From the IMG/VR virus record IMGVR_UViG_3300025326_000020: 64,000 nucleotides of DNA; one strand, written 5' to 3'. How positions within the stretch are numbered: position 1 is the stretch's first letter; every line of letters starts with the position of its first letter. A model generated the notes under the pieces. That model did no database searches, was not told the DNA's origin, and was given only the letters and a program-made list of their open reading frames with translations. The position numbers were made by a program, and so were the translations under genes. The DNA is from a virus. Taxonomy: Duplodnaviria > Heunggongvirae > Uroviricota > Caudoviricetes. Below are positions 49,160 to 62,842 of this stretch, in pieces.

Positions 49160-49235
49160 CCTCCTTGATTCAGTAGCAAGAATCGAACTTGCACATTGAC
49201 GCCGAGTAACCAGCCGCCTCTTCCATTTGGGCTAT
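49160..49235 (-). ncRNA. tRNA-like element or pseudogene with no foldable anticodon arm
   Basis: perfect acceptor TTCAGTA/TACTGAA and T-arm GCAAG-TTCGATT-CTTGC; 74 nt; central region fails to form a 5-bp/7-nt anticodon arm. Confidence 0.4.
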
Positions 49236-49368
49236 ACTGAACTTAGTAAGTTAAGGTTACTGCTAGCGACCTCCACAGCATACGTACGATACTGACGGAA
49301 CCCATTCGCCTGACCCGTATAGTCCTACTGCCATCGTGCCCGTCGACACTCCCTCACCTTAACTTACG

Positions 49369-50216: not shown

Positions 50217-51218
50217 TCAGTTGATAAGCAGCAACTTAGTACCAGGAACCAACTTGCGGTTCACCGATGTTGATTGCACAAATACGTCGAACTTGTCATT
50301 ATCTTCTGGTGAAACTCGAACTTCTTCTGGACGCAAACCAAGCATATCACGAACCTGATCACCTGAGAAGACTCTGCCTGTGGATTTTTCTAGTACAGCA
50401 ATGTTCTTTTGTGGTTGAATAGATTCTCTCTTTGTAAGTTGGTAGTAAGCAATACCAAGGTAAAAGTTGTGTCCCTTGCCAATTACCCACTCACGAATAG
50501 GAGCAGCTTCATCAACATCAAGCATAGTGAATTTGGTTTTAGGCAGTGCCTTAAGCTTCGCTGCCTTGATGGTAGCCTTGTTTAGTGCAGTTGCATCCAT
50601 CTGGAATAAAGATCTGGAACCACGCACACCCGATGTTCGACTAACCATGAAATTTTCAGTTGCTTGTCTGATAGTCTTACCAACTTCAACAACACCTTGT
50701 GCACTGGTAGCATCCCAAATTGCGATGTTGTCTGCTGGGAAACCAAACTTCTTAGCTTCAAATTTGCACCGTTGATCAGGTACTAAGACAGCCACAGTCC
50801 AATGATCTGGTTGTGTTGCCAATCGGTTGAGTAGATCTGATGGACGTCGATGACTTGCATTTTCCTGTCCATCAGTAAGAACGTATGTTAGGAACGCGTG
50901 ATCTCCATAAAGTTCAGGAGTATGTCCTAGATCTTCTTGTGACTTTAGAGTTGCATCGATCAGTGCAGTCATTCCCGCCGTACGGTAGTGCTTTGCAATA
51001 GATGGCAGACGAAGAACATCCTTGTCGTATACCACGCACTGTACAGCATCGGAAAAGACATAAACACTAACTCTAGTTTCTTGATCCAATTCCTTAGATC
51101 GTTGTGCTAGGTATGCGGTTTGTGCATCTGCCACCTGAACAACTTCTCTTGACAAATCTCTCATGGAGTCAGATGCATCAAGAACAAGAGCAATGTGATT
51201 AATATAATTTGCTGACAT
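50217..51218 (-). CDS. von Willebrand factor A (vWA) domain protein
   Basis: N-terminal MIDAS-like LVLDASDSM...VYVFSD; 333 aa. Confidence 0.6.
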   Translation of the reverse strand: MSANYINHIALVLDASDSMRDLSREVVQVADAQTAYLAQRSKELDQETRVSVYVFSDAVQCVVYDKDVLRLPSIAKHYRTAGMTALIDATLKSQEDLGHTPELYGDHAFLTYVLTDGQENASHRRPSDLLNRLATQPDHWTVAVLVPDQRCKFEAKKFGFPADNIAIWDATSAQGVVEVGKTIRQATENFMVSRTSGVRGSRSLFQMDATALNKATIKAAKLKALPKTKFTMLDVDEAAPIREWVIGKGHNFYLGIAYYQLTKRESIQPQKNIAVLEKSTGRVFSGDQVRDMLGLRPEEVRVSPEDNDKFDVFVQSTSVNRKLVPGTKLLLIN

Positions 51219-51247
51219 GATATCCCTTTTGTTATAGTTTAATTGAG

Positions 51248-51319
51248 TAGTCCCATAGGGAATCGAACCCTATCCTACGCGGTGAAAGCGCGCAAAGCTA
51301 ACCAATACTCAATGGGACC
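51248..51319 (-). tRNA. tRNA-Glu (anticodon TTC)
   Basis: acceptor GGTCCCA/TGGGACT; anticodon arm GCGCG-CTTTCAC-CGCGT; T-arm TAGGG-TTCGATT-CCCTA. Confidence 0.65.
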
Positions 51320-51520
51320 GAATGCTCAGATGTACTTATTACCTACCATACCTTGTTGAGCTAGCTTACCTAACCGTCGCCAGGTAGAATGTACTTTCTG
51401 CAACTGATCTGGACGGTTAATTGTACTGGTAAACTTGTTCAGGAACTCACGTTCGATGGTACTATATGGCGTTTTAGTGCTGTATACCAGCGTGTTGTCT
51501 ACCATGAGCCCATTTCCTGT

Positions 51521-51709
51521 CTAGTCGAATACCTTGTTACAATTGGTACAAACCCATCGCCTCTTACCATTAATTGGTGGCAATGATTTTATATAGCTAA
51601 CAACCGGTATGGCATTGGGATCATGATGCCAACATCTTTGTTGAATTCTTTTTATAGTTGATATAGCAGTAATTGCGAATTTATACTTGAATACAACAAA
51701 TTCCATCAA
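51521..51709 (-). CDS. small zinc-ribbon protein
   Basis: C-terminal WVCTNCNKVF. Confidence 0.35.
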   Translation of the reverse strand: MMEFVVFKYKFAITAISTIKRIQQRCWHHDPNAIPVVSYIKSLPPINGKRRWVCTNCNKVFD

Positions 51710-52092
51710 GAACCAACCTGTTGACCGTCATTGTCCCAGTGAAACTCAACCACTGGTCGGTGCACACGACAGTTAACACAGTAAGTGGCACCGTAAAATT
51801 TTGGGTCACGAGCATAGGTTTCTGAAATCGATTGTGACATTGTTGTTACAACACCACAGTAATCGTGTACATAGCTGTTGCGGTAAGGTCTAACAAAACC
51901 CTTACCACGTTCCTCTTCGGACAGAACCAAATAAACCTCAGCCTGTGGTACTGGCGGCCCATCTAATGATTCTGCCCCACGTGTTAATCTAGGATCGCTA
52001 GGATCAGATGTTGTTCCTGTCATCGTATCTCCACTGGTGTCAGGTTGGCATGACCTCATCCCATACCAGCTTCTTAGTTCAGTGTTCCGCAC
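51706..52092 (-). CDS. hypothetical protein (YCVNCRVHRP motif)
   Basis: ORF. Confidence 0.4.
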   Translation of the reverse strand: MRNTELRSWYGMRSCQPDTSGDTMTGTTSDPSDPRLTRGAESLDGPPVPQAEVYLVLSEEERGKGFVRPYRNSYVHDYCGVVTTMSQSISETYARDPKFYGATYCVNCRVHRPVVEFHWDNDGQQVGS

Positions 52093-52175
52093 CTGAATAA
52101 TATAAGAAGCCGCTCTTTGAACCTCTAGTACTTATGCGGTCCGTACTGTGTTACGAGTCTAAGCTACACCTGACG

Positions 52176-52247
52176 TCGGGATAGAAGGAATTGAACCTTC
52201 TGCCTCTCGCTCCCAAAGCGAGCGTTCTTCCGATGAACTATATCCCG
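52176..52247 (-). tRNA. tRNA-Pro (anticodon TGG)
   Basis: perfect acceptor CGGGATA/TATCCCG; anticodon arm CTCGC-TTTGGGA-GCGAG; T-arm GAAGG-TTCAATT-CCTTC. Confidence 0.7.
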
Positions 52248-52387
52248 TATGTATTAGGAGGGGAATTAGTTTTGCTGGCGCTAGCAATTCCATGGATACC
52301 ATTGCACTCTTTGAGGAACCAGACAGCGATCAACTTGCTGGCGATGCATAGTCGTCAACTACATCCCCTGTCTAACACGACTACCTG

Positions 52388-52460
52388 TCGACTACTCAGG
52401 AGTTGAACCTGAATCTCCCATGTTATCAGCATGGTGCTTTACCTGTTAAGCTAATAGTCG
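52388..52460 (-). tRNA. tRNA-Ile (anticodon GAT)
   Basis: acceptor CGACTAT/GTAGTCG; D-arm GCTTAACAGGTAAAGC; anticodon arm CCATG-CTGATAA-CATGG; T-arm TCAGG-TTCAACT-CCTGA. Confidence 0.7.
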
Positions 52461-52631
52461 TTGGATGGTGATGAAAATTACCTCACATCCATGTTTCTAT
52501 CTAATCGGCCAGATCGTATAGCATGGATTCTTTTGGCTCTAATCAACGGAGTATGAACAGAACGGCTCACTTGTTAACATACTCTTTTACCATCTAGGTT
52601 TCCTATAGATCGTGCACTATCTACTGGTCCC

Positions 52632-52712
52632 GTGGGTCGGAAGGATTCGAACCTTCATCACCGGCATTGCTGCCCGCTCTACCATTTGAGCTACTAACCC
52701 TCGAACAGCGCA
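52632..52712 (-). ncRNA. tRNA-like element: canonical D-arm and T-arm, GNRA tetraloop hairpin (GGCA-GCAA-TGCC) in place of the anticodon arm, mismatched acceptor; 3' side ends in the CGACCCAC repeat
   Basis: D-arm GCTCAAATGGTAGAGC; T-arm GAAGG-TTCGAAT-CCTTC; no anticodon loop; 5'/3' acceptor strands not complementary. Confidence 0.45.
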
Positions 52713-52853
52713 ATCTTCGTCTTCCAGGACTAGGATACTATTGCTGCCGGTCCCCTGGAAAGGACTTGCACAGAACAGGATTATGAGTCCTGCCCAGTAC
52801 CTTTATCGTGGAGAGTGGTTAGCTCTCCACGCCCGGTTACCAGCCGGGAGCTA

Positions 52854-53087
52854 TTATGGCTTTACTACACCGTGCACAGTAATCTGCATTTGATCACTGT
52901 CTGTCGGTGTGTACTCTTTATGTTCCTGAACAGATACTCTACTTTCTGGAACCATGTTCTTACATTGTTCTACTAACCAACGTAGATCTTCTAGAGTTAT
53001 AGGTTCGTTTATAGATATATCAGTTTGTATTTTTCTACTCACGTGGGGAATCATGGATTTGAACCACTCGTTTGGATTCCGGCCCAA
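52854..53087 (-). CDS. hypothetical protein
   Basis: ORF; partly overlaps a degenerate tRNA-like element. Confidence 0.3.
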   Translation of the reverse strand: MGRNPNEWFKSMIPHVSRKIQTDISINEPITLEDLRWLVEQCKNMVPESRVSVQEHKEYTPTDSDQMQITVHGVVKP

Positions 53088-53122
53088 ACTTTACCGTGCG
53101 TGCACGTCTGCACATCCCCTAT
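53045..53122 (-). ncRNA. degenerate tRNA-like element (T-loop TTCAAAT, GGGG/CCCC ends)
   Basis: T-loop and partial acceptor only; no canonical D or anticodon arms. Confidence 0.3.
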
Positions 53123-53165
53123 GTCGTTGACATTCAGCCTAGCAAGCATGAGCAGCAATGTCAAG

Positions 53166-53381
53166 CTAGATTTCCTCTTGATCACTAGGCTGTCTATGTT
53201 GCTTACGCTTGTTCTTAATTGCGTAGAATGTCCTATTTAACCGTTTTGCTAGTTGCTGGATGCTTAGATCACCAGTGGCTATCAGTGCAATCTCCCAGTC
53301 TTCCCACGGTTGGTGGTTTCTGGTTGCATATGCTAACGATCTGGCTTGACGTGATTGCTCTATTGCTTTTCTTCTAGCCAT
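53166..53381 (-). CDS. small HTH DNA-binding protein (start moved to internal Met to clear the tRNA)
   Basis: LSIQQLAKRLNRTFYAIKNKR helix-turn-helix-like. Confidence 0.4.
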   Translation of the reverse strand: MARRKAIEQSRQARSLAYATRNHQPWEDWEIALIATGDLSIQQLAKRLNRTFYAIKNKRKQHRQPSDQEEI

Positions 53382-53411
53382 AATTTCCAAAGTTTCTACT
53401 ATTTTACGAAG

Positions 53412-53484
53412 TGCTCTCAGAGGGATTCGAACCCTCACTTATCAGGACTTAAATCTGATGCCTCTGCCGTTGGGCTATGAGAGC
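53412..53484 (-). tRNA. class-I tRNA with leucine-type anticodon TAA (identity uncertain)
   Basis: perfect acceptor GCTCTCA/TGAGAGC; anticodon arm TCAGA-TTTAAGT-CCTGA (one A.C mismatch); T-arm GAGGG-TTCGAAT-CCCTC; discriminator A. Confidence 0.55.
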
Positions 53485-53626
53485 TTGTGTTGGAATCATC
53501 GAACTTCTTAAAACATGCTTGACATTGTATAAACCTAGTATTATTTATTGCGACCCCTAAATAATACACCTCATCTTGACCACATTGCGGACAAGAGTAG
53601 GACATCTTCTTCATTTGAGTCTCCAA
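53435..53626 (-). CDS. small zinc-ribbon protein (C-terminal 16 codons run through the tRNA)
   Basis: CPQCG...CQAC. Confidence 0.35.
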   Translation of the reverse strand: METQMKKMSYSCPQCGQDEVYYLGVAINNTRFIQCQACFKKFDDSNTSSHSPTAEASDLSPDK

Positions 53627-53835
53627 TTCTTTTTACGTTGTGCTGCTCGTGCGCTCAGAATACCACCTACCGTAACTAGAACGTCATAGTTAGGTTCCTG
53701 CACTATGGCAACAATTAAGTTAGCTGCTTGTTGCTGATCCATACCATCTTCTATTAGCGCGATGAAACCAGCTATGACTTCATCAGTCATCCCCATCTGT
53801 CTGGCCTTAGCCACTATGTCATCAGTGCCTTGCAT
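53611..53835 (-). CDS. hypothetical protein
   Basis: ORF. Confidence 0.4.
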   Translation of the reverse strand: MQGTDDIVAKARQMGMTDEVIAGFIALIEDGMDQQQAANLIVAIVQEPNYDVLVTVGGILSARAAQRKKNWRLK

Positions 53836-53855
53836 GATTTCTCCTGATCATTGTC

Positions 53856-53936
53856 GGAACGGCGTAGGCCCCGGACTACATGCGGCTCTGGTGACTCGCC
53901 AGCAGCAAAGCTCCTGACACTTTCCTAGCCGTTCCT
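53856..53936 (-). ncRNA. candidate structured RNA: 8-bp terminal stem GGAACGGC/GCCGTTCC with bulged extension and internal hairpin
   Basis: inverted repeats enclosing ~65 nt in an ORF-free interval 3' of rsr. Confidence 0.3.
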
Positions 53937-54221
53937 TAGTTGACCTAACCCCTATCAACATGTTAGCCCTTTAACGTGGTGACCACTGGATCTATAAGCT
54001 AACTTCCCCACGGTGTTAAGGTGCTTGGCTCCATCGGTGAGTCAATATGCCAAGCCGCACGCTCATCGTGCCCGTCGTGATATAGCATCAGCAATCGTAG
54101 CTTTGCTGCCTCAGCCCCCAAGGCTACTATACCAGCCGTGTCAAACGCAGTTTTGAGTCTCCCTTCAAGGACCAACTCTAACTGGCTCACTAACCTATCC
54201 TATGTAACAAATAGGATAGAC

Positions 54222-54363
54222 TGCCTCGATCGCTGGACTTGAACCAACAACCTCCAACTTAGCATCCCAGATCACTGTGGCCACAGCTCCCCTTTGTCTA
54301 AAACATGTGTGTACACACATGTTTTAGTTTTGTCGGTGCTCTATCCAATTGAGCTAGATCGAG
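54222..54363 (-). ncRNA. candidate Y RNA (YrlA-like tRNA mimic): tRNA scaffold with ~75-nt insertion replacing the anticodon arm
   Basis: perfect 7-bp acceptor CTCGATC/GATCGAG; canonical D-arm TAGCTCAATTGGATAGAGC; T-arm GTTGG-TTCAAGT-CCAGC; insertion contains a 14-bp perfect hairpin CTAAAACATGTGTG/CACACATGTTTTAG and the 12-nt palindrome CTGTGGCCACAG; ~290 nt 3' of the Ro60 orthologue on the same strand. Confidence 0.5.
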
Positions 54364-54434
54364 TAGTGGCTCTCCTTTTTCTCACCAGTGGCGAGAGCCG
54401 TTCCACTAACCGGAATCAGTGCAGTCGCTGAACA

Positions 54435-54653
54435 CTAACCCGGGAGACTAGTTGTTATAGTACGTGAATACAATTCATCCAGCCTTGTATCAATAGGACG
54501 CTTGAAATAAAAACGAACACTACCAATGTGGGTTGCGAGTGGATGAGCTGATACCAATTCCCAACCCTGTAGACCTAAAGAATCTAAGATCTCTTGCTGG
54601 TTATCAGGGTGACGAGCAACTTCGGTTTTGTATTCCCACAACACGTGAATCAT
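54435..54653 (-). CDS. small DUF4177-like protein
   Basis: LGLQGWELVS motif; overlaps the rsr stop. Confidence 0.4.
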   Translation of the reverse strand: MIHVLWEYKTEVARHPDNQQEILDSLGLQGWELVSAHPLATHIGSVRFYFKRPIDTRLDELYSRTITTSLPG

Positions 54654-56281
54654 ATGTTACCAGCCGAGAATTGTGATACCAGTGCTGGTAGATTAGCGTC
54701 GCCACCAACTACGTCTAACATTCCACGATCGCTAGGATCTGCAATCGTAAAGTTGGTAGCAGATGCAGCCGCAACAATCAGCTTAGCATCAATACCTGTC
54801 TTCTGTCGGTACTGCTTTATTGCCTGGAATGGATGTACGTCACCAAACCAAGTCTCATTGTCAGTGTATATCATAAAGGTATCGACTGCAATGTTGTGCT
54901 TGGCAGCGTAAAGCATCGGCTGTGCACAATCCGTACGACCAAACGACATACTGTTAGTAATTCGCAGAACATCATCTAGACGCATTCCAGGAGAAATACC
55001 TAGATCCTTCATTACATCTGAGAAACCAAAGGCTAGATAGAATGGCTCAGTCTTAGCAACTGAAAGGACCATTGCCGCACCAAGTTCAGCAGCAGTCAGA
55101 TCTAGTCCTGATGCAGCCTGCTTCATTGAACCAGAAACGTCAAGACCAATGAAGAATCTCTTGTTCGATGGCTCAACATAACTAAAGGACTTGTAGAATG
55201 CATCGTTCAATGCATCCACAATTACTGGTGAAGTTGTCCAGTCCTTAGGCTTATAAGCTGCTGGACCACCGAAGCCCATAGGGTATTTATATCCACCCTG
55301 TGTCTCACGAGCAATTTGACCCTTAGTATGCACCATTAGTGCAAGCAAGAACTGAATAGGGTGTAGTCTGGTCTTCTGAATCATTGTCTCGTTAGTGAGC
55401 GCGGTTGCAATCTCACGAGCGAACACCATATCGTTGAACATACCCAATCTTGCAAAGCGAGTAATGTTACGAACAAGTGCCTGACCAGTGAGCTGTCCAT
55501 TGCGGTAAAGCTGATGCCAGACTCTCGGTTCCTTATGGTACTGAGTTGGCACAACTTCCCATGGTAGACCAGGAACAGCTTCTAGTACATTCAAAAGTTC
55601 TTCAACATTTGGTGCTGCCTGTGCAATCTTAAAACCTGCAACTAGTTGGTGTTCACCACTATCAAAGCCAGTCTTACCAAGGATGAACTCACCAATACCT
55701 GGTACAAAACTGCCCTTAACGTGTGATAGTCTAAACATATCACGATGAGTCCAACCGTCGCGCTGGCGATACTTAACCGCCTGGTAGGCTAGCTGGTCTG
55801 GCGTCTTGTGGGTGTACCAGTCAGCTACCGCACGGCGCTTGGTCTTGCCCCAACCACCACCACCGTAATAAGTTCCTAGGTACTTTGCGAACTCATACAG
55901 CATAGTAGATGTACGGCACACACGCTGCACCAAGCTAGATAGGTCACGCTTCTTACCATATTTACCAAGTGCCGCCACTACAAAGACAGCGTACTTGTTA
56001 CGGAAAGCACGACCAGATTCTGAAACTTCCAGAACTGTGTCAATAACTAGCTGCTCATCACGATCAATTAGATCAATTAGGAAGTTCACGTTTTCACGTG
56101 TAAGAGGCTTCTCATCCTGGTAGTAGGTACCTTTCTCAGTACCAACAATTAGGAATCTTTCAAGTCTAACCTTGTCTGATACAGCGAAGACAAACCCACC
56201 AGCATTGTTCTTAACCTGATCTAGTCGAGCCTGCTCACGCTGTGTTGATGCAGTAAGGCTGCGAGAAAATACGTCACTCAT
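54650..56281 (-). CDS. rsr: Ro60/Rsr orthologue (TROVE domain + C-terminal vWA domain)
   Basis: N-terminal VRLERFLIVGTEKGTYY aligns with the human Ro60 RLHRFLCFGSEGGTYY region; C-terminal vWA with MIDAS FFIGLDVSGSM; 543 aa, typical Ro60 size. Confidence 0.8.
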   Translation of the reverse strand: MSDVFSRSLTASTQREQARLDQVKNNAGGFVFAVSDKVRLERFLIVGTEKGTYYQDEKPLTRENVNFLIDLIDRDEQLVIDTVLEVSESGRAFRNKYAVFVVAALGKYGKKRDLSSLVQRVCRTSTMLYEFAKYLGTYYGGGGWGKTKRRAVADWYTHKTPDQLAYQAVKYRQRDGWTHRDMFRLSHVKGSFVPGIGEFILGKTGFDSGEHQLVAGFKIAQAAPNVEELLNVLEAVPGLPWEVVPTQYHKEPRVWHQLYRNGQLTGQALVRNITRFARLGMFNDMVFAREIATALTNETMIQKTRLHPIQFLLALMVHTKGQIARETQGGYKYPMGFGGPAAYKPKDWTTSPVIVDALNDAFYKSFSYVEPSNKRFFIGLDVSGSMKQAASGLDLTAAELGAAMVLSVAKTEPFYLAFGFSDVMKDLGISPGMRLDDVLRITNSMSFGRTDCAQPMLYAAKHNIAVDTFMIYTDNETWFGDVHPFQAIKQYRQKTGIDAKLIVAAASATNFTIADPSDRGMLDVVGGDANLPALVSQFSAGNI

Positions 56282-56329
56282 TCTCCGACCCCTTCCGGGA
56301 TATTTTAGTGTTAGTTTTGTTTGGTTAAG

Positions 56330-56422
56330 TGGAGGTATAAGGATTCGAACCTTATCTACACAGTTAGCTAAACTGCGCTCATTAGGTGGCTATCCTAATG
56401 GCCCGTGACCCCCAAGGTACGT
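56330..56422 (-). ncRNA. tRNA-like structured element 5' of rsr (T-arm plus two hairpins; acceptor not closable)
   Basis: T-arm TAAGG-TTCGAAT-CCTTA; hairpins CATTAGG-ATAGCCA-CCTAATG and CAGTT-TAGCT-AACTG. Confidence 0.35.
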
Positions 56423-56454
56423 TGGATATAATTTAAATATAGGCGTGCGCAGGA

Positions 56455-56560
56455 TCATGGGTTCCGATTTGAACGGAAGTTTCACATCTACGATGTGTGT
56501 CTTGCCACATTAGACGACCCTTGATAACCTATACTCGTCCGACCCAACGTAATGTTAGTA
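56455..56560 (-). ncRNA. tRNA-like member of the GTGGGTCGGA repeat family
   Basis: 5' GTTGGGTCGGA-CGAG-TATAGGTTATC; 3' T-arm-like TCCG-TTCAAAT-CGGA followed by ACCCA, which pairs with the 5' TGGGT. Confidence 0.35.
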
Positions 56561-56684
56561 TTCCCAACCACACCAACAATCTACTATTTCTTCTTTAGTC
56601 CATGGTGTGGTGTCATGCTTCAAAATCTTTTTTATCAGTTCAGTTTTACCTGAATTTGGATGGCCAATAACACCTATTGTTTGT

Positions 56685-57959
56685 TCAGAAGTTGAACGGA
56701 GTGGTTGTTCCGTTGGCGTTGAGGTAGGCATTTCCTGATTCCTCGTATCCTACGTTGCTTGGATACCATGAGTGCACTGGTCCTGAGTTACCACATCTAG
56801 CATGCCACAGCTTACCAAATCTGTTATCGAAATACCTTACATTCTTAGCGGTTGGACCACCAGTGTATGTGCAGTATTCGCCAGCAGCATTAAGCAAATT
56901 GTACCGGACTAGCACACCATCCATTGCACCTTCATCATACAGTGACAATGCTGACGAGCAGCCCTGTGGGCCTGGATCAGCAAATACCGCACGATAGCAG
57001 TTTAGGTTGTTGTGCCAAATCACAATGTTCTTGCCATAGTTCATCCCAACAGCCGCTTGGTGAGCACCTGTAGTGTAAACCATTCGCGTCACGTATGAGT
57101 CCGTGATACTTACGTTGTTTCCACCACCAATACCTGTTGAGGTATCATGTACGTAGCAACGTAGACAAGAGTAGTTATCACCATCAGCCACCGGCGCCGC
57201 ATTTGTAACGGCACTAGTGATCTCAACATCTATCAGCTTCAAACCACGATAGTTCTTGCTTGCTGACCAATGTGGTGAGATTGCACCAACAATAAGCGAA
57301 TTACGAATGGTGATGTTTCCTGCTACATCGTGCACCCGAAGAAATCCTTGACTACCTTGGAAAATGCAACCATCAAAAATCAGGTTGCCCTTTTCAAAGT
57401 GACCATCAAAGTTATCTGGGTTACTTGCCGGTGTGGCATCCTGCTCACTACAACGCTTAAGATCTGTCTTCGTCAATCCCGTATGCACATATCCAGTGCA
57501 ATTCTCATCCGGGAACGCTGGCCATGGAGCACAGAATAACACAGGACCAGGACCCGGAGGATCTGTTGGCGTAGGAGTTGGGGTCGTCGTTACTGTGGGT
57601 GTTGGTGTTGCTGTCGGGCTTGGTGTAATGGTAGGACCCACAGTAGGACTGGGTGTCGGAGTAGCAGTAACCGTAGGAGTTGGGGATGGTGTAGGTGTTA
57701 CCTCAGGCAGAGTAAATGCACTGACACAACGAACTAACCATTCTCGATCCGCTGCTGATAATGGTGCAGGATTATCAAGACGGTCCTGACAATCCTGACG
57801 GGCACTATCAGCAGTCGCTGCACTACTAGCACTAGCTCCGAACGACAGCGTGTTTGCGGTCGCTCCGACTACTAGAAACGCAGCGGCTACTGTTGTTACT
57901 AATTTTGCTTTTGTCAGCACTTGCTTGCCTCCTAATGTTGGCATCCCGTGACATGGCAA
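56685..57959 (-). CDS. secreted protein: signal peptide, Pro/Thr-rich linker, right-handed beta-helix (pectate-lyase-like) domain
   Basis: N-terminal hydrophobic signal; TPTPSPTPTVTATPTPSPTVGPTITPSPTATPTPTV linker; repetitive NxxIxN beta-helix-like C-terminal domain. Confidence 0.55.
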   Translation of the reverse strand: MPCHGMPTLGGKQVLTKAKLVTTVAAAFLVVGATANTLSFGASASSAATADSARQDCQDRLDNPAPLSAADREWLVRCVSAFTLPEVTPTPSPTPTVTATPTPSPTVGPTITPSPTATPTPTVTTTPTPTPTDPPGPGPVLFCAPWPAFPDENCTGYVHTGLTKTDLKRCSEQDATPASNPDNFDGHFEKGNLIFDGCIFQGSQGFLRVHDVAGNITIRNSLIVGAISPHWSASKNYRGLKLIDVEITSAVTNAAPVADGDNYSCLRCYVHDTSTGIGGGNNVSITDSYVTRMVYTTGAHQAAVGMNYGKNIVIWHNNLNCYRAVFADPGPQGCSSALSLYDEGAMDGVLVRYNLLNAAGEYCTYTGGPTAKNVRYFDNRFGKLWHARCGNSGPVHSWYPSNVGYEESGNAYLNANGTTTPFNF

Positions 57960-57969
57960 AATTGTTTAC

Positions 57970-58054
57970 GCGGTGAAGGTAGGATTTGAACCCACGGTGC
58001 TTTTACACACTTCCGCTTTCAAGGCGGATGCCTTAAGCCTCTCGGCCACTTCAC
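57970..58054 (-). tRNA. tRNA-Ser (anticodon TGA), type II
   Basis: perfect acceptor GGTGAAG/CTTCACC; anticodon arm TCCGC-CTTGAAA-GCGGA; long variable arm GTGTGTAAAAGCAC; T-loop TTCAAAT; 85 nt. Confidence 0.7.
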
Positions 58055-58105
58055 CAAACTTTATATATGTTTCCATGTTCTTCTAGCTATAAGTTCTCTT
58101 ATTAA

Positions 58106-58453
58106 TTACCAATCATGATCATCGGTTATCGGTGATAGATCATCAGGATCAGCACCAATGAGTTTACAAAGCTTAGTCCAAATTTTGAGCAAACAAATTT
58201 CACAATAATCACGACGGAACTGCTGGTGTACACATTGATCAGGATTGAGATAGATTGATAACTCAGACAGTTCAACATCACCGTCAGGTATTACTAAACC
58301 ACAACCATCGCATGTATAGTGTACAATCTGTATTGTCTGACTTACTTCTCTAGTTTCAACCCTTGTACTGTACCGTCTAGACATGATGCTCCTAGAGTGC
58401 TTTGGATATGTTATCGCAATCGTAAATGAGGCCCCACTTATACAACTATCCAC
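58106..58453 (-). CDS. hypothetical protein
   Basis: ORF. Confidence 0.4.
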   Translation of the reverse strand: MDSCISGASFTIAITYPKHSRSIMSRRYSTRVETREVSQTIQIVHYTCDGCGLVIPDGDVELSELSIYLNPDQCVHQQFRRDYCEICLLKIWTKLCKLIGADPDDLSPITDDHDW

Positions 58454-58578
58454 CGTGGTTAACGCTATCTTCCGTAGCTCCCACCAAATGATGCATAATC
58501 TAGTGTTAGAGTATGATCTCAGGGCTCTCTCGCGATGTAAGTTAAACGATTACTGCCGACCCAAAGCGAGTCTAGAAG

Positions 58579-59370
58579 CTAGCAGCTACGAATGGCAATA
58601 CCTCGTGCTCTAAGCCAAGGTGCTGGATTAATCTGATTCCATAGTCCCTTGTGCACTTCAAAGTGCAGATGTGGTCCGGTCGCATGACCAGTTGCACCAA
58701 CATAGCCTATGATTTGACCAGCCTTAACCCTTTGACCGTTGCTGACAATTTCACGGCTCATGTGTGCATAGTGAGTATATACGTTGCCACCATGATTAAC
58801 AAACACCGAGATACCATAGCCGGAATAAATCCAACCCGACTTATATATTGTACCGGCGGATACCGCACGTATCGGCGTACCTGTGGGCTTTGCCAGGTCT
58901 ACTCCCTGGTGCATACTACCCCATCGCATTCCGAAACATGAGGTAACGGCCGCACCCTTTAGTGGGTTGACCCATTTTGCTGAGCTAATCGTTGGTTTTG
59001 GCTTGGTTGCCGGTGCGACTGTCTTAACGGTAACACCTAATTTGGGAATCCACAACCGTTGGCCGTCCAAAATTATATTCGGATCGGCAACTCTACTCTT
59101 GTTTGCCTTGTAAATGGTGGGCCATAAACTAGCCTTACCATAGTAATGCTTAGCCATTCCAGACAAGGTACCATTAATAGACGGATAAGCTGTAACATTA
59201 GCCCAGAAGCCATCGGCTGATTGTGCTGCACTTATCTTTTCTACTGTGAATTCAACATTCGTTGGTTGTGCTGTGATCGATGCTGCGGTTGCGCTAGTTT
59301 CTGTTAGTAGGAGTGTGCCAATGGCGATTAAACCTGCAATAGTAATTGCGGCTAATCTGGTTCTCTTCAT
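58579..59370 (-). CDS. secreted LysM + M23 (LytM-type) peptidoglycan endopeptidase
   Basis: signal peptide; LysM-like HYYGKASLWPTIYKANKSRVADPNIILDGQRLWIP; M23 motifs HQGVDL and GPHLHFEV. Confidence 0.7.
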   Translation of the reverse strand: MKRTRLAAITIAGLIAIGTLLLTETSATAASITAQPTNVEFTVEKISAAQSADGFWANVTAYPSINGTLSGMAKHYYGKASLWPTIYKANKSRVADPNIILDGQRLWIPKLGVTVKTVAPATKPKPTISSAKWVNPLKGAAVTSCFGMRWGSMHQGVDLAKPTGTPIRAVSAGTIYKSGWIYSGYGISVFVNHGGNVYTHYAHMSREIVSNGQRVKAGQIIGYVGATGHATGPHLHFEVHKGLWNQINPAPWLRARGIAIRSC

Positions 59371-59736
59371 TAGATTCCTAACACTGTGCAGAAACAGACA
59401 GTAGTGCTAGGAATCGAATAAGAAGTCTGTTTCCGCTCCTATATGATTATTAAGTTGTAGCGAAACCTCTCAGCCCTTATGGTTTCATGGGAGCCCTCAA
59501 CAATTGTGCCGCTCCTACTACACACCATACCATTTCAGTGGCATCTGGTATGGCAGCCACCAACGTTAATACCTAACAAGTTCGGCGAAATCCTACGGGG
59601 GAGGAGCCGAACGATTCAGGTATTTCTACAGCCACCGTGACTCTAATAATAAGAACACATTAGTTGTTTCACACACTGATCCCTAAGGAGAGAGTTGTGT
59701 ACAGGTCTCCTGTACCACCATGACTAATGTGTTCAG

Positions 59737-59808
59737 TGCTTTCAACAGGACTCGAACCTGTGCACTCCCGGCTTCAACGGGATGCTCTACCAGCTAAGCT
59801 ATGAAAGC
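59737..59808 (-). tRNA. tRNA-Phe (anticodon GAA)
   Basis: perfect acceptor GCTTTCA/TGAAAGC; D-arm GCTTAGCTGGTAGAGC; anticodon arm TCCCG-TTGAAGC-CGGGA; T-arm ACAGG-TTCGAGT-CCTGT. Confidence 0.75.
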
Positions 59809-59950
59809 ATAACATTAGCTTCTCTTTTCAGAACTCTATGGAAGCTCTTGATGTCTCCAACATCTGTGATCGTATGTTTGACCACGTAGACACCAACGTT
59901 TGATACATAATCTTTTGTGTGGAAATTTTCTATTGAACCATGCTTTCACG

Positions 59951-60022
59951 AGACGCCAGTAGGATTCAAACCTACGTAGATTGGATTTGCAATCCAATGC
60001 CTAATCACTCGGCCATGACGTC
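59951..60022 (-). tRNA. tRNA-Cys (anticodon GCA)
   Basis: acceptor GACGTCA/TGGCGTC; anticodon arm TTGGA-TTGCAAA-TCCAA; T-arm GTAGG-TTTGAAT-CCTAC. Confidence 0.6.
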
Positions 60023-60029
60023 ATTCTTA

Positions 60030-60167
60030 CTAATCGTCAGTAAATGCAGTTGTTGCTAGTTCATCAAACTTCTCTACAATTTCTTTGCGCTTCTTAACTA
60101 CGACTAGAACTAGTGCAACTGCTGCTGCTGCTGTTGCCCCTGCTACTAGCCATACTACCTTAGGCAT
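60030..60167 (-). CDS. unannotated 45-aa single-transmembrane peptide (below the ORF-track size cutoff)
   Basis: ATG at 60167; hydrophobic WLVAGATAAAAVALVLVVV followed by KKRKE. Confidence 0.3.
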   Translation of the reverse strand: MPKVVWLVAGATAAAAVALVLVVVKKRKEIVEKFDELATTAFTDD

Positions 60168-60225
60168 AACTCTCCAATTGATTATAGCGTATGGATATGT
60201 TTATTGATATCGGATATCTTATGTC

Positions 60226-60251
60226 GTTAACCGATTTCATCCGACCCATAC
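60226..60251 (+). repeat. GTTAACCGA-N6-TCCGACCCA repeat copy
   Basis: matches 63892..63916. Confidence 0.5.
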
Positions 60252-60280
60252 GTGAGATACCATTCCCGTGGTTGATCTCG

Positions 60281-60352
60281 TGGTCATAGAAGGAGTCGAA
60301 CCTTCAGGGCTATTGCTTTACAGGCAACGCCAGACACCATATCAGTACGACC
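60281..60352 (-). tRNA. tRNA-Tyr-like (anticodon GTA) with short variable loop and atypical D-arm
   Basis: acceptor GGTCGTA/TATGACC; anticodon arm GTTGC-CTGTAAA-GCAAT; T-arm GAAGG-TTCGACT-CCTTC. Confidence 0.4.
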
Positions 60353-60531
60353 AATTTATTACGTAGTGTGAGGCCATATCATGTTCGGACAAGAACAAAG
60401 AATACACCGAAAAGGTGTCCCTGGATCAGTTGGATCAAGATTGAGTGTGTCATCTAGACGGTGATCATCGCTGCTATGTTCACAGCTTGTACAATTTTCA
60501 GGTTCCATAATCAACACTCACTTTCTTATAG

Positions 60532-62359: not shown

Positions 62360-62445
62360 CCGCAAAGGTGGAGAGATTCGAACTCTCATAATCGGTTTTG
62401 GAGACCAATCAGCACAACCTACGCTCACCGATAAGGTGGCCATCC
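62360..62445 (-). ncRNA. tRNA-like structured element (T-arm GAGAG-TTCGAAT-CTCTC plus long-range 8-bp helix TAATCGGT/ACCGATTA)
   Basis: no canonical cloverleaf. Confidence 0.3.
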
Positions 62446-62842
62446 ATTTGGTTAGCAAGGCGATGGCCTATTCCTTGTATTATAGCTTATCTACAGATCG
62501 CGTTTAGTTTTTTCAGTAGAGCTGACGTTTCATCATGGCTCAGCTAATTCCATGACTTCTATAGATAAACTGTTTTGAATAGTACAATCGAACGATCTGA
62601 CTAACCTTTAACAGGGCCAACTGTTTGCGTTCAGATAGTATGGTTACTCCGGCTAAGAGCCATAGCGTTTGATTGTACAATAGACTCGCCATTTCTGGCG
62701 TCGCAGTACAATCTTGTTTGCCAAGACTATACTACTAAAAGCTTTTCGTGGCCGGGGACGAGATCCCACGCTTCCACAACCATACACTGCAACTAATCGG
62801 CAAACTAGTGTTGCAAATGTACCAAGCCTCTTACTGGTTCCG

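What the first reader, a model, noticed from the sequence alone, without database searches (positions are those of the whole stretch)
53836..54434. ~600-nt ORF-poor interval 3' of rsr packed with long-range helices
Besides the tRNA-like element, 53856..53936 forms an 8-bp terminal stem (GGAACGGC/GCCGTTCC) extended by a bulged 4-bp helix with an internal hairpin (CUGG-CGAGUCA-CCAG). Another hairpin, ctatcctatgtaacaaataggatag, lies at ~54197. The only ORF (53999..54190, 63 aa) has no RBS or informative composition. Salmonella encodes two Y RNAs (yrlA, yrlB) 3' of rsr, so a second Ro60-associated RNA is plausible here.
Basis: inference. Interest (0 to 1): 0.5.

Follow-up and report, generated by a model that had tools for sequence, protein, structure and literature searches.

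The report
New structured RNA downstream of phage Ro60

Summary
All genes here are on the minus strand (rsr/Ro60 54650-56281).

The interval does contain conserved RNA elsewhere:
- An H-type pseudoknot (54368-54407), 4 nt upstream of the tRNA-like element. It recurs in related phages, usually 4-5 nt before a tRNA.
- The tRNA-like element (54224-54363), a class-I cloverleaf interrupted by a 66-nt palindromic insert.
- A ~200-nt multi-helix RNA (54020-54219). It overlaps the 63-aa ORF, which is therefore almost certainly spurious.

The ~200-nt RNA occurs in nine divergent Ro60-encoding phage lineages, always just 3' of rsr on the same strand. In five of them it ends 2-12 nt before a tRNA. On the model-fitted nine-sequence alignment, 95% of cells pair, 25 of 33 pairs show compensatory changes, and a long-range pseudoknot occurs in four covarying versions.

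It matches no Rfam family. It fails the YrlA tests that could be run, although the YrlA model does detect mycobacteriophage Bxz1.

Best reading: a new Ro60-linked non-coding RNA, probably cut out by tRNA-processing enzymes. Ro60 binding is untested.

The parts
54650..56281 (-). rsr (Ro60 ortholog, 543 aa). This is the context gene; everything below lies 3' of it on the same strand.
   Evidence: Pfam TROVE and vWA_Ro60 domains. The nearest cultured relatives are Streptomyces phages (Moab, Comrade) at 51% amino-acid identity.
54435..54653 (-). 72-aa ORF overlapping the rsr stop codon (ATGA). It has a weak, sub-threshold DUF4177 match.
   Evidence: It has no homolog in related loci.
54368..54413 (-). 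5' pseudoknot module. Layout: CCGG-UU-[P1a AGUGG]-AAC-[P2a GGCUCUC]-G-[P1b CCACU]-GGUGAGAAAAAG-[P2b GAGAGCC]. It is an H-type pseudoknot with an A-rich third loop.
   Evidence: Homologous copies occur in L084, L085 (two), L289, L206, L008, L002, L010 and L013, plus a second copy in the window. On alignment A7, 94.3% of cells are paired and 8 of 12 pairs carry compensatory changes, reached by at most 1 of 500 shuffles. Coordinates.
54364..54367 (-). 4-nt spacer (ACUA) between the pseudoknot and the 5' end of the tRNA-like element. This is the inferred RNase P cleavage position.
   Evidence: The spacer is 4 nt in the window, L085a, L010, L013 and L008, and 5 nt in L002. Cleavage itself is inferred.
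54224..54363 (-). tRNA-like element: a class-I cloverleaf with anticodon loop AUGCUAA (GCU), interrupted between positions 32 and 33 by a 66-nt insert (54266-54331). The insert contains a 30-nt perfect palindrome (54298-54327) and a 12-nt palindrome.
   Evidence: Rfam tRNA model, 38.8 bits, with a 73-nt unaligned insert. ARAGORN finds it only with introns allowed. With the insert removed it resembles the window's tRNAs (z up to 8.3). The palindrome is unique in the window.
54020..54219 (-). Conserved ~200-nt structured RNA ('core RNA'). Parts in order:
- P0 hairpin, 54195-54219
- pseudoknot strand GUGAG, 54186-54190
- Pa hairpin, about 54146-54184
- CUGCGUUUGACACGGC, 54135-54150
- Pb domain, 54079-54133
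- hp1, 54057-54071
- hp2, 54023-54055, whose loop CUCAC (54037-54041) pairs with GUGAG
- single-stranded ACC, 54020-54022
   Evidence: Covariance model R2 scores it 101.7 bits. The same model finds two members that were not in its seed: L001 (E 1e-22) and L533 (E 3e-13). RNAalifold, run on the unfitted MAFFT alignment, recovers Pa, hp1 and hp2. Helix table; coordinates.
53999..54190 (-). 63-aa GTG ORF. Judged spurious: it lies entirely inside the conserved RNA, and its GTG start is the first three bases of the pseudoknot strand GUGAG.
   Evidence: No Pfam hit. No tblastn match in the homologous segments, and the longest open frames there differ in strand and frame. Automatic gene callers did call it on the three identical contigs.
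53939..53984 (-). Two small hairpins with the conserved loop AGGGGUUAG. They resemble a block that lies just 5' of tRNA-Glu(CUC) in L289.
   Evidence: A local alignment to L289 6679-6729 with compensatory changes (GUUGAU/GUCAAC against GAUGGU/GCCAUC). There are only two instances, so this is weak.
53856..53935 (-). It is lineage-specific and of unknown status, either a 5'-UTR structure of the next ORF or a very decayed tRNA-like relic.
   Evidence: z = -1.6. No homolog. No similarity to the window's tRNAs (maximum z 2.2). ARAGORN calls it only at 80% of its normal threshold, alongside two plainly spurious calls. No tRNA-model hit at E<=10.
53611..53845 (-). Ribosome-binding site (AGGAG) and the 74-aa ORF that closes the interval. 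The tRNA-Leu(UAA) that follows the core RNA directly in relatives lies further on, at 53411-53484.

Best explanation
The interval is a composite non-coding locus in the 3' region of the rsr transcription unit, not a single Y RNA gene.

**Shown**
- It contains a 40-nt H-type pseudoknot, placed 4 nt upstream of a tRNA-shaped element. That element carries a 66-nt palindromic insert in its anticodon loop.
- Four nucleotides after the tRNA-shaped element comes a ~200-nt RNA of five conserved helices plus a long-range pseudoknot.
- That RNA is shared by nine divergent Ro60-encoding phage lineages. It always lies immediately 3' of rsr on the same strand.

**Inferred**
- The modules are co-transcribed with rsr. 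In several relatives only 3-10 nt separate the preceding stop codon from the RNA, which leaves no room for a separate promoter.
- The modules are then separated by the host's tRNA-processing enzymes. RNase P would cut 4 nt after the pseudoknot, and a 3'-processing enzyme would cut after the tRNA-like element, freeing the core RNA.
- In five relatives a genuine tRNA starts 2-12 nt after the RNA's terminal ACC. RNase P would therefore set its 3' end and leave a tail probably too short for 3'-exonucleases to engage.
- The freed ~200-nt RNA is the best candidate for the Ro60 partner of this phage clade. It would fill the role that YrlA-type Y RNAs fill elsewhere.
- The 80-nt hairpin at 53856-53935 is not part of the conserved unit.
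For: **Homology and structure of the core RNA**
- On the plain MAFFT alignment, 90.3% of cells are paired and 21 of 33 pairs have changes on both sides. No shuffle of 500 reaches this, and slid controls give 31-43%.
- On the nine-sequence, model-fitted alignment, 95.2% of cells are paired and 25 of 33 pairs have changes on both sides. Hairpin hp2 is 100% paired, with 10 of 12 pairs compensatory.
- The loop-to-strand pseudoknot is 97.8% paired and occurs in four versions: GUGAG/CUCAC, GUUGG/CCAAC, GCUGG/CCAGC and GUAGG/CCUAC.
- RNAalifold independently recovers three of the helices.
- The model finds two members that were not in its seed, L001 and L533.
- G-U pairs are present and non-standard cells are few, which fits the rsr strand.

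**Pseudoknot module**
- Covariation in both helices.
- A fixed 4-5 nt distance to the next tRNA or tRNA-like element in six instances.

**Linkage to rsr**
- All nine members lie 3' of rsr.
- In L287, L288 and L290 the RNA begins 3-8 nt after the rsr stop codon.
- In L533 the following tRNA is Asp(GUC), not Leu(UAA). The constant neighbour is therefore rsr, not one particular tRNA.

**Terminators:** no terminator-like site on the gene strand in 53300-54800.

**An empty YrlA slot**
- No YrlA hit near rsr in the window or in four loci that carry the core RNA.
- Weak YrlA hits do occur upstream of Ro in Streptomyces phages Gilson and Comrade, which lack the core RNA, and in Bxz1.

**Precedent:** in D. 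radiodurans and Salmonella the Y RNAs are encoded within 2 kb of rsr, and the best candidates elsewhere lie on the same strand within 4 kb (PMC4201824).
Against: - No expression, processing or binding data exist. All members come from uncultured metagenomic contigs.
- Synteny cannot separate 'works with Ro60' from 'belongs to this clade's tRNA array'. Within the sampled loci the RNA occurs only in the clade whose Ro60 is about 54-60% identical to the window's.
- The RNA lacks the Ro60-binding hallmarks known so far: a terminal 5'/3' stem and the CGAA / GNCGAAN0-1G motif.
- In the window, L084, L085 and L290 the RNA is 98-535 nt from the next tRNA, so a 3' end set by RNase P is not universal.
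- The pseudoknot also occurs 3 kb from rsr (L008), about 6 kb from rsr in this window, and in front of an ORF (L206). It is therefore not specific to rsr.
- The alignments were fitted to the model and lean towards the structure. One search is the unfitted control.
Confidence: 0.55

Rival explanations
1. The ~200-nt RNA is a cis-acting leader of the tRNA that follows it, usually the phage copy of the rare-codon tRNA-Leu(UAA). It would control that tRNA's processing, stability or timing and have nothing to do with Ro60.
For: - In L001, L287, L288 and L289 the RNA ends 2-12 nt before tRNA-Leu(UAA), and in L533 it ends 9 nt before tRNA-Asp.
- The separate pseudoknot module is clearly a tRNA-leader element.
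- Phage tRNA-adjacent structured RNAs have precedent: theta ribozymes that process tRNA 3' trailers (PMC10879173).
Against: - In the window the RNA is 535 nt and two ORFs away from tRNA-Leu(UAA). In L290 an ORF intervenes, and in L084 and L085 the gap is about 100-230 nt and includes a promoter-like site.
- The downstream tRNA's identity is not constant (L533).
- In five loci where tRNA-Leu(UAA) is not next to rsr (L003, L010, L013, L018, L030), model R2 finds no such RNA.
Confidence: 0.2
2. The structured region is simply the 3' untranslated end of the rsr mRNA. It would be a folded cap, trimmed by RNase P, that protects the message from 3'-exonucleases or lets Ro60 regulate its own mRNA, with no function as a free RNA.
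For: - The RNA or the pseudoknot starts within 3-30 nt of the preceding stop codon in every member.
- The 3' tails left after an inferred RNase P cut would be short.
- This is analogous to the MALAT1 3' end, which is made by RNase P at a tRNA-like structure (my own knowledge, not checked here).
Against: - A five-helix fold with a conserved long-range pseudoknot and conserved single-stranded motifs (CUGCG..UGAC, terminal ACC) is far more elaborate than end protection needs.
- In the window and in L085 a tRNA or tRNA-like element lies between the mRNA and the core RNA, which would detach the two.
Confidence: 0.15
3. One reading: the 53856-53936 stem structure is a second YrlA/YrlB-type Y RNA bound by Ro60.
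For: - It lies on the rsr strand, 715 nt downstream of rsr.
- It has a 12-bp bulged closing stem.
- An 11-nt perfect complement links it to 54099-54109 inside the core RNA (I4; about 0.1 expected by chance).
Against: - Folding energy is within the range of shuffles (z -1.6).
- It has no homolog in any related locus.
- It has no YrlA or other Rfam hit at E<=10 and no GNCGAAN0-1G motif.
- It sits 10 nt upstream of the ribosome-binding site of the next ORF, as a 5'-UTR hairpin would.
Confidence: 0.07
4. The interval is debris of a decaying tRNA array (a tRNA gene broken by an inserted palindrome, relic hairpins) and/or it encodes the 63-aa protein.
For: - The window carries 27 tRNA genes and several degenerate tRNA-like sequences.
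- The tRNA-like element is interrupted at a non-canonical position by a 66-nt palindromic insert, and no bacterial splicing route is known for that.
- The tRNA-like elements of the window, L084 and L085 differ greatly from each other.
- Gene callers predicted the 63-aa ORF.
Against: - Debris does not keep 25 of 33 base pairs through compensatory changes across nine lineages whose Ro60 proteins are only about 54-60% identical to the window's.
- The ORF's reading frame is not conserved in the homologous segments.

This rival remains reasonable only for the tRNA-like element's insert and for the 80-nt hairpin.
Confidence: 0.03

Closest known systems
YrlA / bacterial and phage Y RNAs (Rfam RF02553; Chen et al. 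2014, PMC4201824)
   Same: - Non-coding RNA encoded next to rsr on the same strand, apparently co-transcribed with it.
- A modular locus that includes a tRNA-shaped domain.
- Likely dependence on tRNA-processing enzymes. M. smegmatis YrlA is cut by RNase P.
   Different: - No GNCGAAN0-1G motif, and no terminal stem formed by the 5' and 3' ends.
- The tRNA-like element has the normal D / anticodon / T order with open acceptor ends. YrlA has the order T / closed acceptor / D.
- The conserved unit is a ~200-nt pseudoknotted RNA with no tRNA features.
- No YrlA model hit, whereas the model detects Bxz1 (32.5 bits).
Thermus phage phiLo Yrl1/Yrl2 with phage Ro60 (PMC12135203)
   Same: Phage-encoded Ro60 with phage-encoded partner RNAs next to the gene.
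   Different: - Yrl1 and Yrl2 lie upstream of the gene.
- They are stem-bulge-stem RNAs identified by a CGAA motif.
- Here the RNA is downstream, larger, pseudoknotted and lacks that motif. Only the L010/L013 version of the pseudoknot contains CGAA.
MALAT1 / MEN-beta 3' ends made by RNase P at a tRNA-like structure (mascRNA). Cited from my own knowledge.
   Same: A structured RNA lies directly upstream of a tRNA or tRNA-like element, so RNase P cleavage would create its 3' end. An A-rich strand is packed against a helix next to that end.
   Different: - That is a eukaryotic nuclear system whose protective element is a U-rich/A-rich triple helix, not an H-type pseudoknot.
- Cleavage here is inferred, not shown.
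Theta (minimal HDV-like) ribozymes next to phage tRNAs (PMC10879173)
   Same: Small pseudoknotted RNAs placed beside tRNA genes in phage genomes, with a proposed role in tRNA transcript processing.
   Different: - Theta ribozymes sit downstream of tRNAs and cut at their own 5' end.
- The pseudoknot here sits upstream of the tRNA and lacks the P3 and P1.1 helices of the HDV fold (by inspection).
- No ribozyme family matched.
H-type pseudoknot riboswitch aptamers (preQ1-I, guanidine-III). Compared from my own knowledge plus the Rfam scan.
   Same: Same strand order (P1a-L1-P2a-L2-P1b-L3-P2b), similar size, A-rich third loop.
   Different: - P2 is 6-7 bp with a 1-2-nt second loop, so the fold should be stable without a ligand.
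- It sits in front of tRNAs, not ribosome-binding sites or terminators.
- No Rfam match at E<=10.

Membership tests
YrlA (Y RNA-like, RF02553) | GNCGAAN0-1G motif near the 5' end (proposed Ro60 contact) | tested here: not met
   There is no match on the gene strand inside 53836-54434. The nearest match on that strand is GACGAAG at 52715-52721. The pseudoknot carries GUGGAACG, which matches 7 of 8 positions.
YrlA (Y RNA-like, RF02553) | Arm order of T arm, closed acceptor-like stem-loop, D arm, with the Ro60-binding stem formed by the RNA's two ends | tested here: not met
   The tRNA-like element aligns to the tRNA model end to end in the normal order with open acceptor ends. The core RNA has no T or D arm.
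YrlA (Y RNA-like, RF02553) | Match to the family covariance model | tested here: not met
   No hit at the gathering score anywhere in the window, at E<=10 in 53400-54700, or at E<=5 in 50500-60500. Positive control: Bxz1 scores 32.5 bits, E 1.5e-4.
YrlA (Y RNA-like, RF02553) | Encoded within 4 kb of rsr on the same strand | tested here: met
   The interval starts 216 nt after the rsr stop codon, on the minus strand.
Y RNA in the functional sense | Bound by Ro60 | not testable with these tools
   This needs a pull-down or gel-shift experiment. Only synteny in nine lineages is available.
tRNA (RF00005) | Cloverleaf with a 7-nt anticodon loop, scoring above the family threshold | tested here: inconclusive
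   54224-54363 scores 38.8 bits (threshold 29), but only with a 66-73-nt insert skipped in the anticodon loop. ARAGORN finds it only with introns allowed. 53856-53935 gives no hit at E<=10 and is called only at 80% of the ARAGORN threshold.
tmRNA | tRNA-like ends plus a tag reading frame and pseudoknots, as detected by ARAGORN or Rfam | tested here: not met
   ARAGORN finds no tmRNA in the window or in the interval at a lowered threshold. There is no Rfam tmRNA hit.
Any Rfam 15 family (riboswitches, ribozymes, RNase P, large ornate RNAs such as ROOL/GOLLD) | Covariance-model match for the core RNA or the pseudoknot | tested here: not met
   Only tRNA hits and noise at E<=10 in the window interval, in L287 and in L289.
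Protein-coding gene (63-aa ORF) | Reading frame and protein sequence conserved in homologous segments | tested here: not met
   tblastn finds nothing at E<=1 in the related loci. The longest open frames there differ in strand and frame. No Pfam domain. The large protein database was not searched with this ORF.

The most novel reading that the evidence does not exclude
A clade of uncultured Ro60-encoding phages, distantly related to the Streptomyces-phage family Stanwilliamsviridae, has replaced the YrlA-type Y RNA with an unrelated ~200-nt pseudoknotted RNA as the Ro60 partner. That RNA, together with a portable 40-nt pseudoknot, is matured by placing it directly in front of tRNAs or tRNA look-alikes, so that RNase P makes an exonuclease-resistant 3' end. 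This would be a bacterial-virus counterpart of the MALAT1/mascRNA strategy.
Probability: 0.25. Interest if true: 0.8.

Novelty: new variant of a known kind. Interest (0 to 1): 0.6.

Why it matters
**For Ro60 biology.** What Ro60 does in bacteria and phages, and which RNAs it uses, is largely unknown outside a few species. Chen et al. (PMC4201824) noted that some Ro60-encoding genomes lack a recognisable YrlA.

**What this locus offers.**
- A concrete, sequence-defined candidate: nine members, a covariance-supported fold and defined ends.
- It can be synthesised and tested for Ro60 binding, for RNase P processing and by structure determination.

**Wider implications.**
- Phage tRNA arrays may carry non-tRNA structured RNAs that use neighbouring tRNAs as processing signals.
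- Automatic annotation currently reads these RNAs as small hypothetical ORFs. Here a 63-aa ORF was called on three identical contigs, and a 179-aa reverse-strand ORF was called across the homologous region in L085.

Tried and rejected
**Searches that found no close relative**
- Megablast of the locus against cultured phages: no match. A blastn of the L289 copy also found nothing.
- A Ro60 single-protein scan of viral contigs and an exact-protein look-up both found nothing. Only three 100%-identical contigs exist, so they give no substitutions to analyse.
- blastn of the interval against 80 viral Ro60 loci found nothing. Homology appeared only after fetching the contigs of the closest Ro60 proteins.

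**Pattern scans**
- Degenerate DNA patterns for the pseudoknot and for the core RNA, run on viral and genome contigs, were too unspecific.
- An nhmmer screen of all 532 loci then held, including the 240 from the core-RNA scans, added no member.
- Because of this, the genome scan says nothing about the host.

**Alignment problems**
- MAFFT mis-registers the pseudoknot loops, hp1 and Pb.
- I therefore used model-fitted alignments, with the unfitted alignment as a control.

**Ideas considered and dropped**
- RNase P RNA, T-box, cobalamin riboswitch, group I intron, HDV-like/theta ribozyme, guanidine-III or preQ1 aptamers, and tmRNA. None gave an Rfam or ARAGORN match, and the architectures do not fit.
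- TTGACA within CUGCGUUUGACAC as a promoter -35 element. No -10 hexamer lies at 16-18 nt, and the motif is conserved as RNA sequence in relatives where it is not TTGACA.
- The 80-nt hairpin as a paralog of the pseudoknot or as a decayed tRNA-Ser. The shared 9-mer is at chance level, and there is no similarity to any tRNA in the window.
Full report
**Context.** All 27 tRNA genes and all the long ORFs in this part of the window lie on the minus strand.
- The 543-aa ORF at 54650-56281 is a Ro60 ortholog with TROVE and vWA_Ro60 domains.
- Its closest named relatives are the 'Ro-like RNA binding proteins' of ~130-kb Streptomyces phages such as Moab and Comrade, at 51% identity. Comrade is classified in Stanwilliamsviridae.
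- No cultured phage is closer. Only three 100%-identical metagenomic contigs carry this locus.
- Reading 3' from rsr on the minus strand: a 72-aa ORF overlapping the rsr stop codon, the 599-nt interval (54434 down to 53836), a 74-aa ORF with a good ribosome-binding site, a 63-aa zinc-ribbon-like ORF, and tRNA-Leu(UAA) at 53411-53484.

**Checking the observation.**
- The featured 80-nt structure (53856-53935) is not more stable than chance. Its z-score is -1.60 on the gene strand and -1.91 on the other strand.
- Perfect 8-nt inverted repeats are expected several times per kilobase.
- The element has no counterpart in any of about 170 related loci.
- The interval as a whole folds at z -3.18. This is carried by the tRNA-like element (z -3.99), which holds a 30-nt perfect palindrome.
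- The central 260 nt give only z -1.18. Energy alone would therefore not have flagged what is actually there.

**Finding relatives.** DNA searches failed. Fetching the contigs that encode the most similar Ro60 proteins gave loci in which parts of the interval could be aligned.

**Module 1: a pseudoknot (54368-54407).**
- Sequence: CCGG-UU-AGUGG-AAC-GGCUCUC-G-CCACU-GGUGAGAAAAAG-GAGAGCC.
- It forms an H-type pseudoknot with P1 of 5 bp, P2 of 7 bp, a 1-nt second loop and an A-rich third loop.
- Copies with different helix sequences occur in L084, L085 (two copies), L289, L206, L008, L002, L010 and L013. A second copy lies in this window at 62436-62475.
- On the alignment of these copies, 94.3% of cells pair and 8 of 12 pairs show changes on both sides. 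At most 1 of 500 shuffles reaches this, and slid controls give 25-64%.
- Six copies end exactly 4-5 nt before the first base of a tRNA or tRNA-like element:

| Copy | What follows it |
|---|---|
| window | tRNA-like element |
| L085a | tRNA-Leu-like (AAG) |
| L010 | tRNA-Glu(UUC) |
| L013 | tRNA-Glu(UUC) |
| L008 | tRNA-Glu(CUC) |
| L002 | tRNA-Leu(UAA) |

- Other copies precede the core RNA (L289, L085b) or an ORF (L206).
- The pseudoknot is therefore a portable element of these phages' tRNA arrays. It is not specific to rsr.

**Module 2: the tRNA-like element (54224-54363).**
- The Rfam tRNA model scores it 38.8 bits while skipping 73 nt.
- ARAGORN, with introns allowed, draws a regular class-I cloverleaf. 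The anticodon loop is AUGCUAA and a 66-nt insert sits between positions 32 and 33.
- With the insert removed it resembles the window's tRNAs (z up to 8.3).
- A class-I body with a serine anticodon, plus an insert at a position with no known bacterial splicing route, argues against a working tRNA.
- The elements in the same position in L084 and L085 are very different from it.
- The simplest role they share is as a processing signal.

**Module 3: the conserved core RNA (54020-54219).**
- It then runs through GUGAG-CC, hairpin Pa, the motif CUGCGUUUGACACGGC, a long hairpin domain Pb, hairpin hp1 and a two-tier hairpin hp2. In hp2 a 7-bp outer helix and a 5-bp inner helix close a 6-nt loop.
- It ends in single-stranded ACC.
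- The hp2 loop pairs with the GUGAG strand about 150 nt upstream.
- Seven lineages were aligned. Covariance model R2, built from them, then found L001 (89.8 bits) and L533 (53.2 bits), neither of which was in the seed.

| Alignment | Cells paired | Pairs with changes on both sides | Shuffles reaching this | Slid controls |
|---|---|---|---|---|
| Unfitted MAFFT, 7 sequences | 90.3% | 21 of 33 | 0 of 500 | 31-43% |
| Model-fitted, 9 sequences | 95.2% | 25 of 33 | 0 of 500 | 27-42% |

- In the fitted alignment hp2 is 100% paired, with 10 of 12 pairs compensatory.
- The long-range pseudoknot is 97.8% paired and occurs in four versions: GUGAG/CUCAC, GUUGG/CCAAC, GCUGG/CCAGC and GUAGG/CCUAC.
- RNAalifold on the unfitted alignment recovers Pa, hp1 and hp2 on its own.
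- No Rfam family matches the core RNA in three different members at E<=10.

**The 63-aa ORF.**
- It lies wholly inside the core RNA, and its GTG start codon is part of the pseudoknot strand.
- Its protein finds nothing in the homologous segments, whose longest open frames differ in strand and frame.
- I therefore treat it as a false gene call, although automatic pipelines did call it.
An AGGA does lie 9 nt upstream, so the argument against coding rests on comparison, not on that point.

**Genomic logic.**
- All nine members lie just 3' of rsr on its strand.
- In L287, L288 and L290 the RNA begins 3-8 nt after the rsr stop codon, and in L001 3 nt after a small ORF. This leaves no room for a separate promoter.
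- No terminator-like site is predicted on the gene strand of the window interval.
- In L001, L287, L288 and L289 a tRNA-Leu(UAA) begins 2-12 nt after the terminal ACC. In L533 a tRNA-Asp(GUC) begins 9 nt after it.
- In L084, L085, L290 and the window the next tRNA is 98-535 nt away.
- In five loci where tRNA-Leu(UAA) is not adjacent to rsr, the model finds nothing.
- The constant neighbour is therefore rsr, while a following tRNA of variable identity is frequent.

**Inferred mechanism.** None of the following steps is shown.
- The modules are co-transcribed with rsr.
- RNase P then cuts at the 5' end of the tRNA or tRNA-like elements.
- This would leave the pseudoknot with a 4-nt tail, and the core RNA, where a tRNA follows closely, with a 5-15-nt tail. 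Such tails are probably too short for 3'-exonucleases to engage.
- The tRNA-like element would detach the core RNA from the message.

**Is it a Y RNA?** By family membership, no.
- The GNCGAAN0-1G motif is absent.
- The arm order differs from YrlA.
- The Rfam YrlA model finds nothing within 5 kb of rsr. As a positive control it detects mycobacteriophage Bxz1 at 32.5 bits.
- By function, possibly. Four loci carrying the core RNA have no YrlA-like hit at E<=1. Streptomyces phages Gilson and Comrade lack the core RNA and show weak YrlA-like hits upstream of their Ro genes.
- This partly complementary distribution, the conserved synteny and the precedent of Y RNAs encoded beside rsr (PMC4201824) make the core RNA the best available candidate for the Ro60 partner.
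- I put that specific claim at about 0.3. That a conserved structured RNA exists here I put at above 0.9.

**The remaining 3' part (54019-53836).**
- A two-hairpin block at 53939-53984 resembles a block just upstream of tRNA-Glu(CUC) in L289, with compensatory changes.
- The 80-nt hairpin begins three nucleotides later, at the position where a tRNA would be expected.
- It has a 7-8-bp closing stem and tRNA-like length. However, it shows no tRNA-model hit and no similarity to any tRNA in the window, and ARAGORN calls it only at a relaxed threshold.
- It ends 10 nt before the ribosome-binding site of the 74-aa ORF.
- Its status is open: a 5'-UTR hairpin, a very decayed tRNA relic, or chance.
- An 11-nt perfect complement between it and the Pb domain (53902-53912 with 54099-54109) is unexplained. 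About 0.1 such matches are expected by chance.

**Verdict.**
- A second rsr-linked structured RNA exists, but elsewhere in the interval and of a kind not described before.
- It is a new RNA family in a known genomic niche.
- Limits: nine lineages, all metagenomic; no expression or binding data; unknown host; collection-wide searches could not be made specific with the tools available.

Noticed in passing
window 62436-62475 (-), with 62363-62421 (-): A second copy of the pseudoknot module (CAAGG-AAUA-GGCCAUC-G-CCUUG-CUAACCAAAUG-GAUGGCC) lies upstream of a degenerate tRNA-like sequence. That sequence has a canonical tRNA-Trp anticodon loop (CUCCAAA) and scores exactly at the tRNA threshold (29 bits). 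ARAGORN calls no tRNA-Trp in the window.
   Followed up: partly
window 52461-52853 (-), especially 52633-52700 and 52715-52721: Another ORF-poor stretch of about 400 nt, 1.9 kb downstream of rsr. It contains a 68-nt tRNA-like sequence (35.3 bits) whose anticodon arm ends in a 4-nt loop. It is preceded by GACGAAG, the only nearby same-strand match to the YrlA GNCGAAN0-1G motif, and by a CAU anticodon-arm-like hairpin. No YrlA model hit.
   Followed up: partly
window 54298-54327: A 30-nt perfect palindrome (CTAAAACATGTGTGT/ACACACATGTTTTAG), with a 12-nt palindrome (CTGTGGCCACAG) nearby, makes up most of the 66-nt insert in the tRNA-like element. It is unique in the window. Its origin (small mobile element, protein-binding site or deliberate arm extension) is unknown.
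   Followed up: partly
window 53902-53912 and 54099-54109: An 11-nt perfect complement links the 80-nt hairpin to the Pb domain of the core RNA. About 0.1 such matches are expected by chance in this region, and no comparative data exist to test it.
   Followed up: no
window 54435-54653 (-): A 72-aa ORF overlaps the rsr stop codon (ATGA) and has a sub-threshold DUF4177 match. It is absent from all related loci examined.
   Followed up: partly
L291 2190-2250; L006 1476-1589 and 2703-2760: Sub-threshold YrlA model hits (27-31 bits) lie upstream of the Ro gene in Streptomyces phages Comrade and Gilson. The Comrade hit lies in an unannotated gap between annotated genes. These may be unannotated Y RNAs of cultured phages.
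   Followed up: no
L063 5199-5608: In one Ro60-encoding viral contig, ARAGORN calls a tmRNA starting about 145 nt after the end of the Ro60 match. The Ro60-tRNA-tmRNA neighbourhood seems to recur in these phages.
   Followed up: no
L080 6997-7123; L084 2756-2863: Further tRNA-model hits of 108-127 nt, that is, tRNAs with inserts of about 35-55 nt, occur in other Ro60-encoding phage contigs. Interrupted tRNA-like genes are therefore not unique to this window.
   Followed up: no
L206 3201-3254: Here the pseudoknot follows the Ro60 stop codon directly and is followed by a ribosome-binding site and an ORF of about 70 aa, not by a tRNA. The module also occurs in an mRNA leader context.
   Followed up: partly
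window 49167-49241 (-); L085 5765-5852: tRNAs with A at the first anticodon position are present: Ser-ACU in the window, and Leu-AAG directly after a pseudoknot in L085. This is unusual for bacteria outside tRNA-Arg(ACG).
   Followed up: no
window 53435-53626 (-) against 53411-53484: The 63-aa zinc-ribbon-like ORF, as listed, runs 50 nt into the tRNA-Leu(UAA) gene. Automatic gene callers use a 59-aa version on the identical contigs. The annotation of this ORF's ends needs care.
   Followed up: no
L085 5794-6333: A 179-aa gene was called automatically on the opposite strand, across the tRNA-like element, the second pseudoknot and the core RNA. It is very likely a false call caused by the ORF-free structured RNA region.
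   Followed up: no
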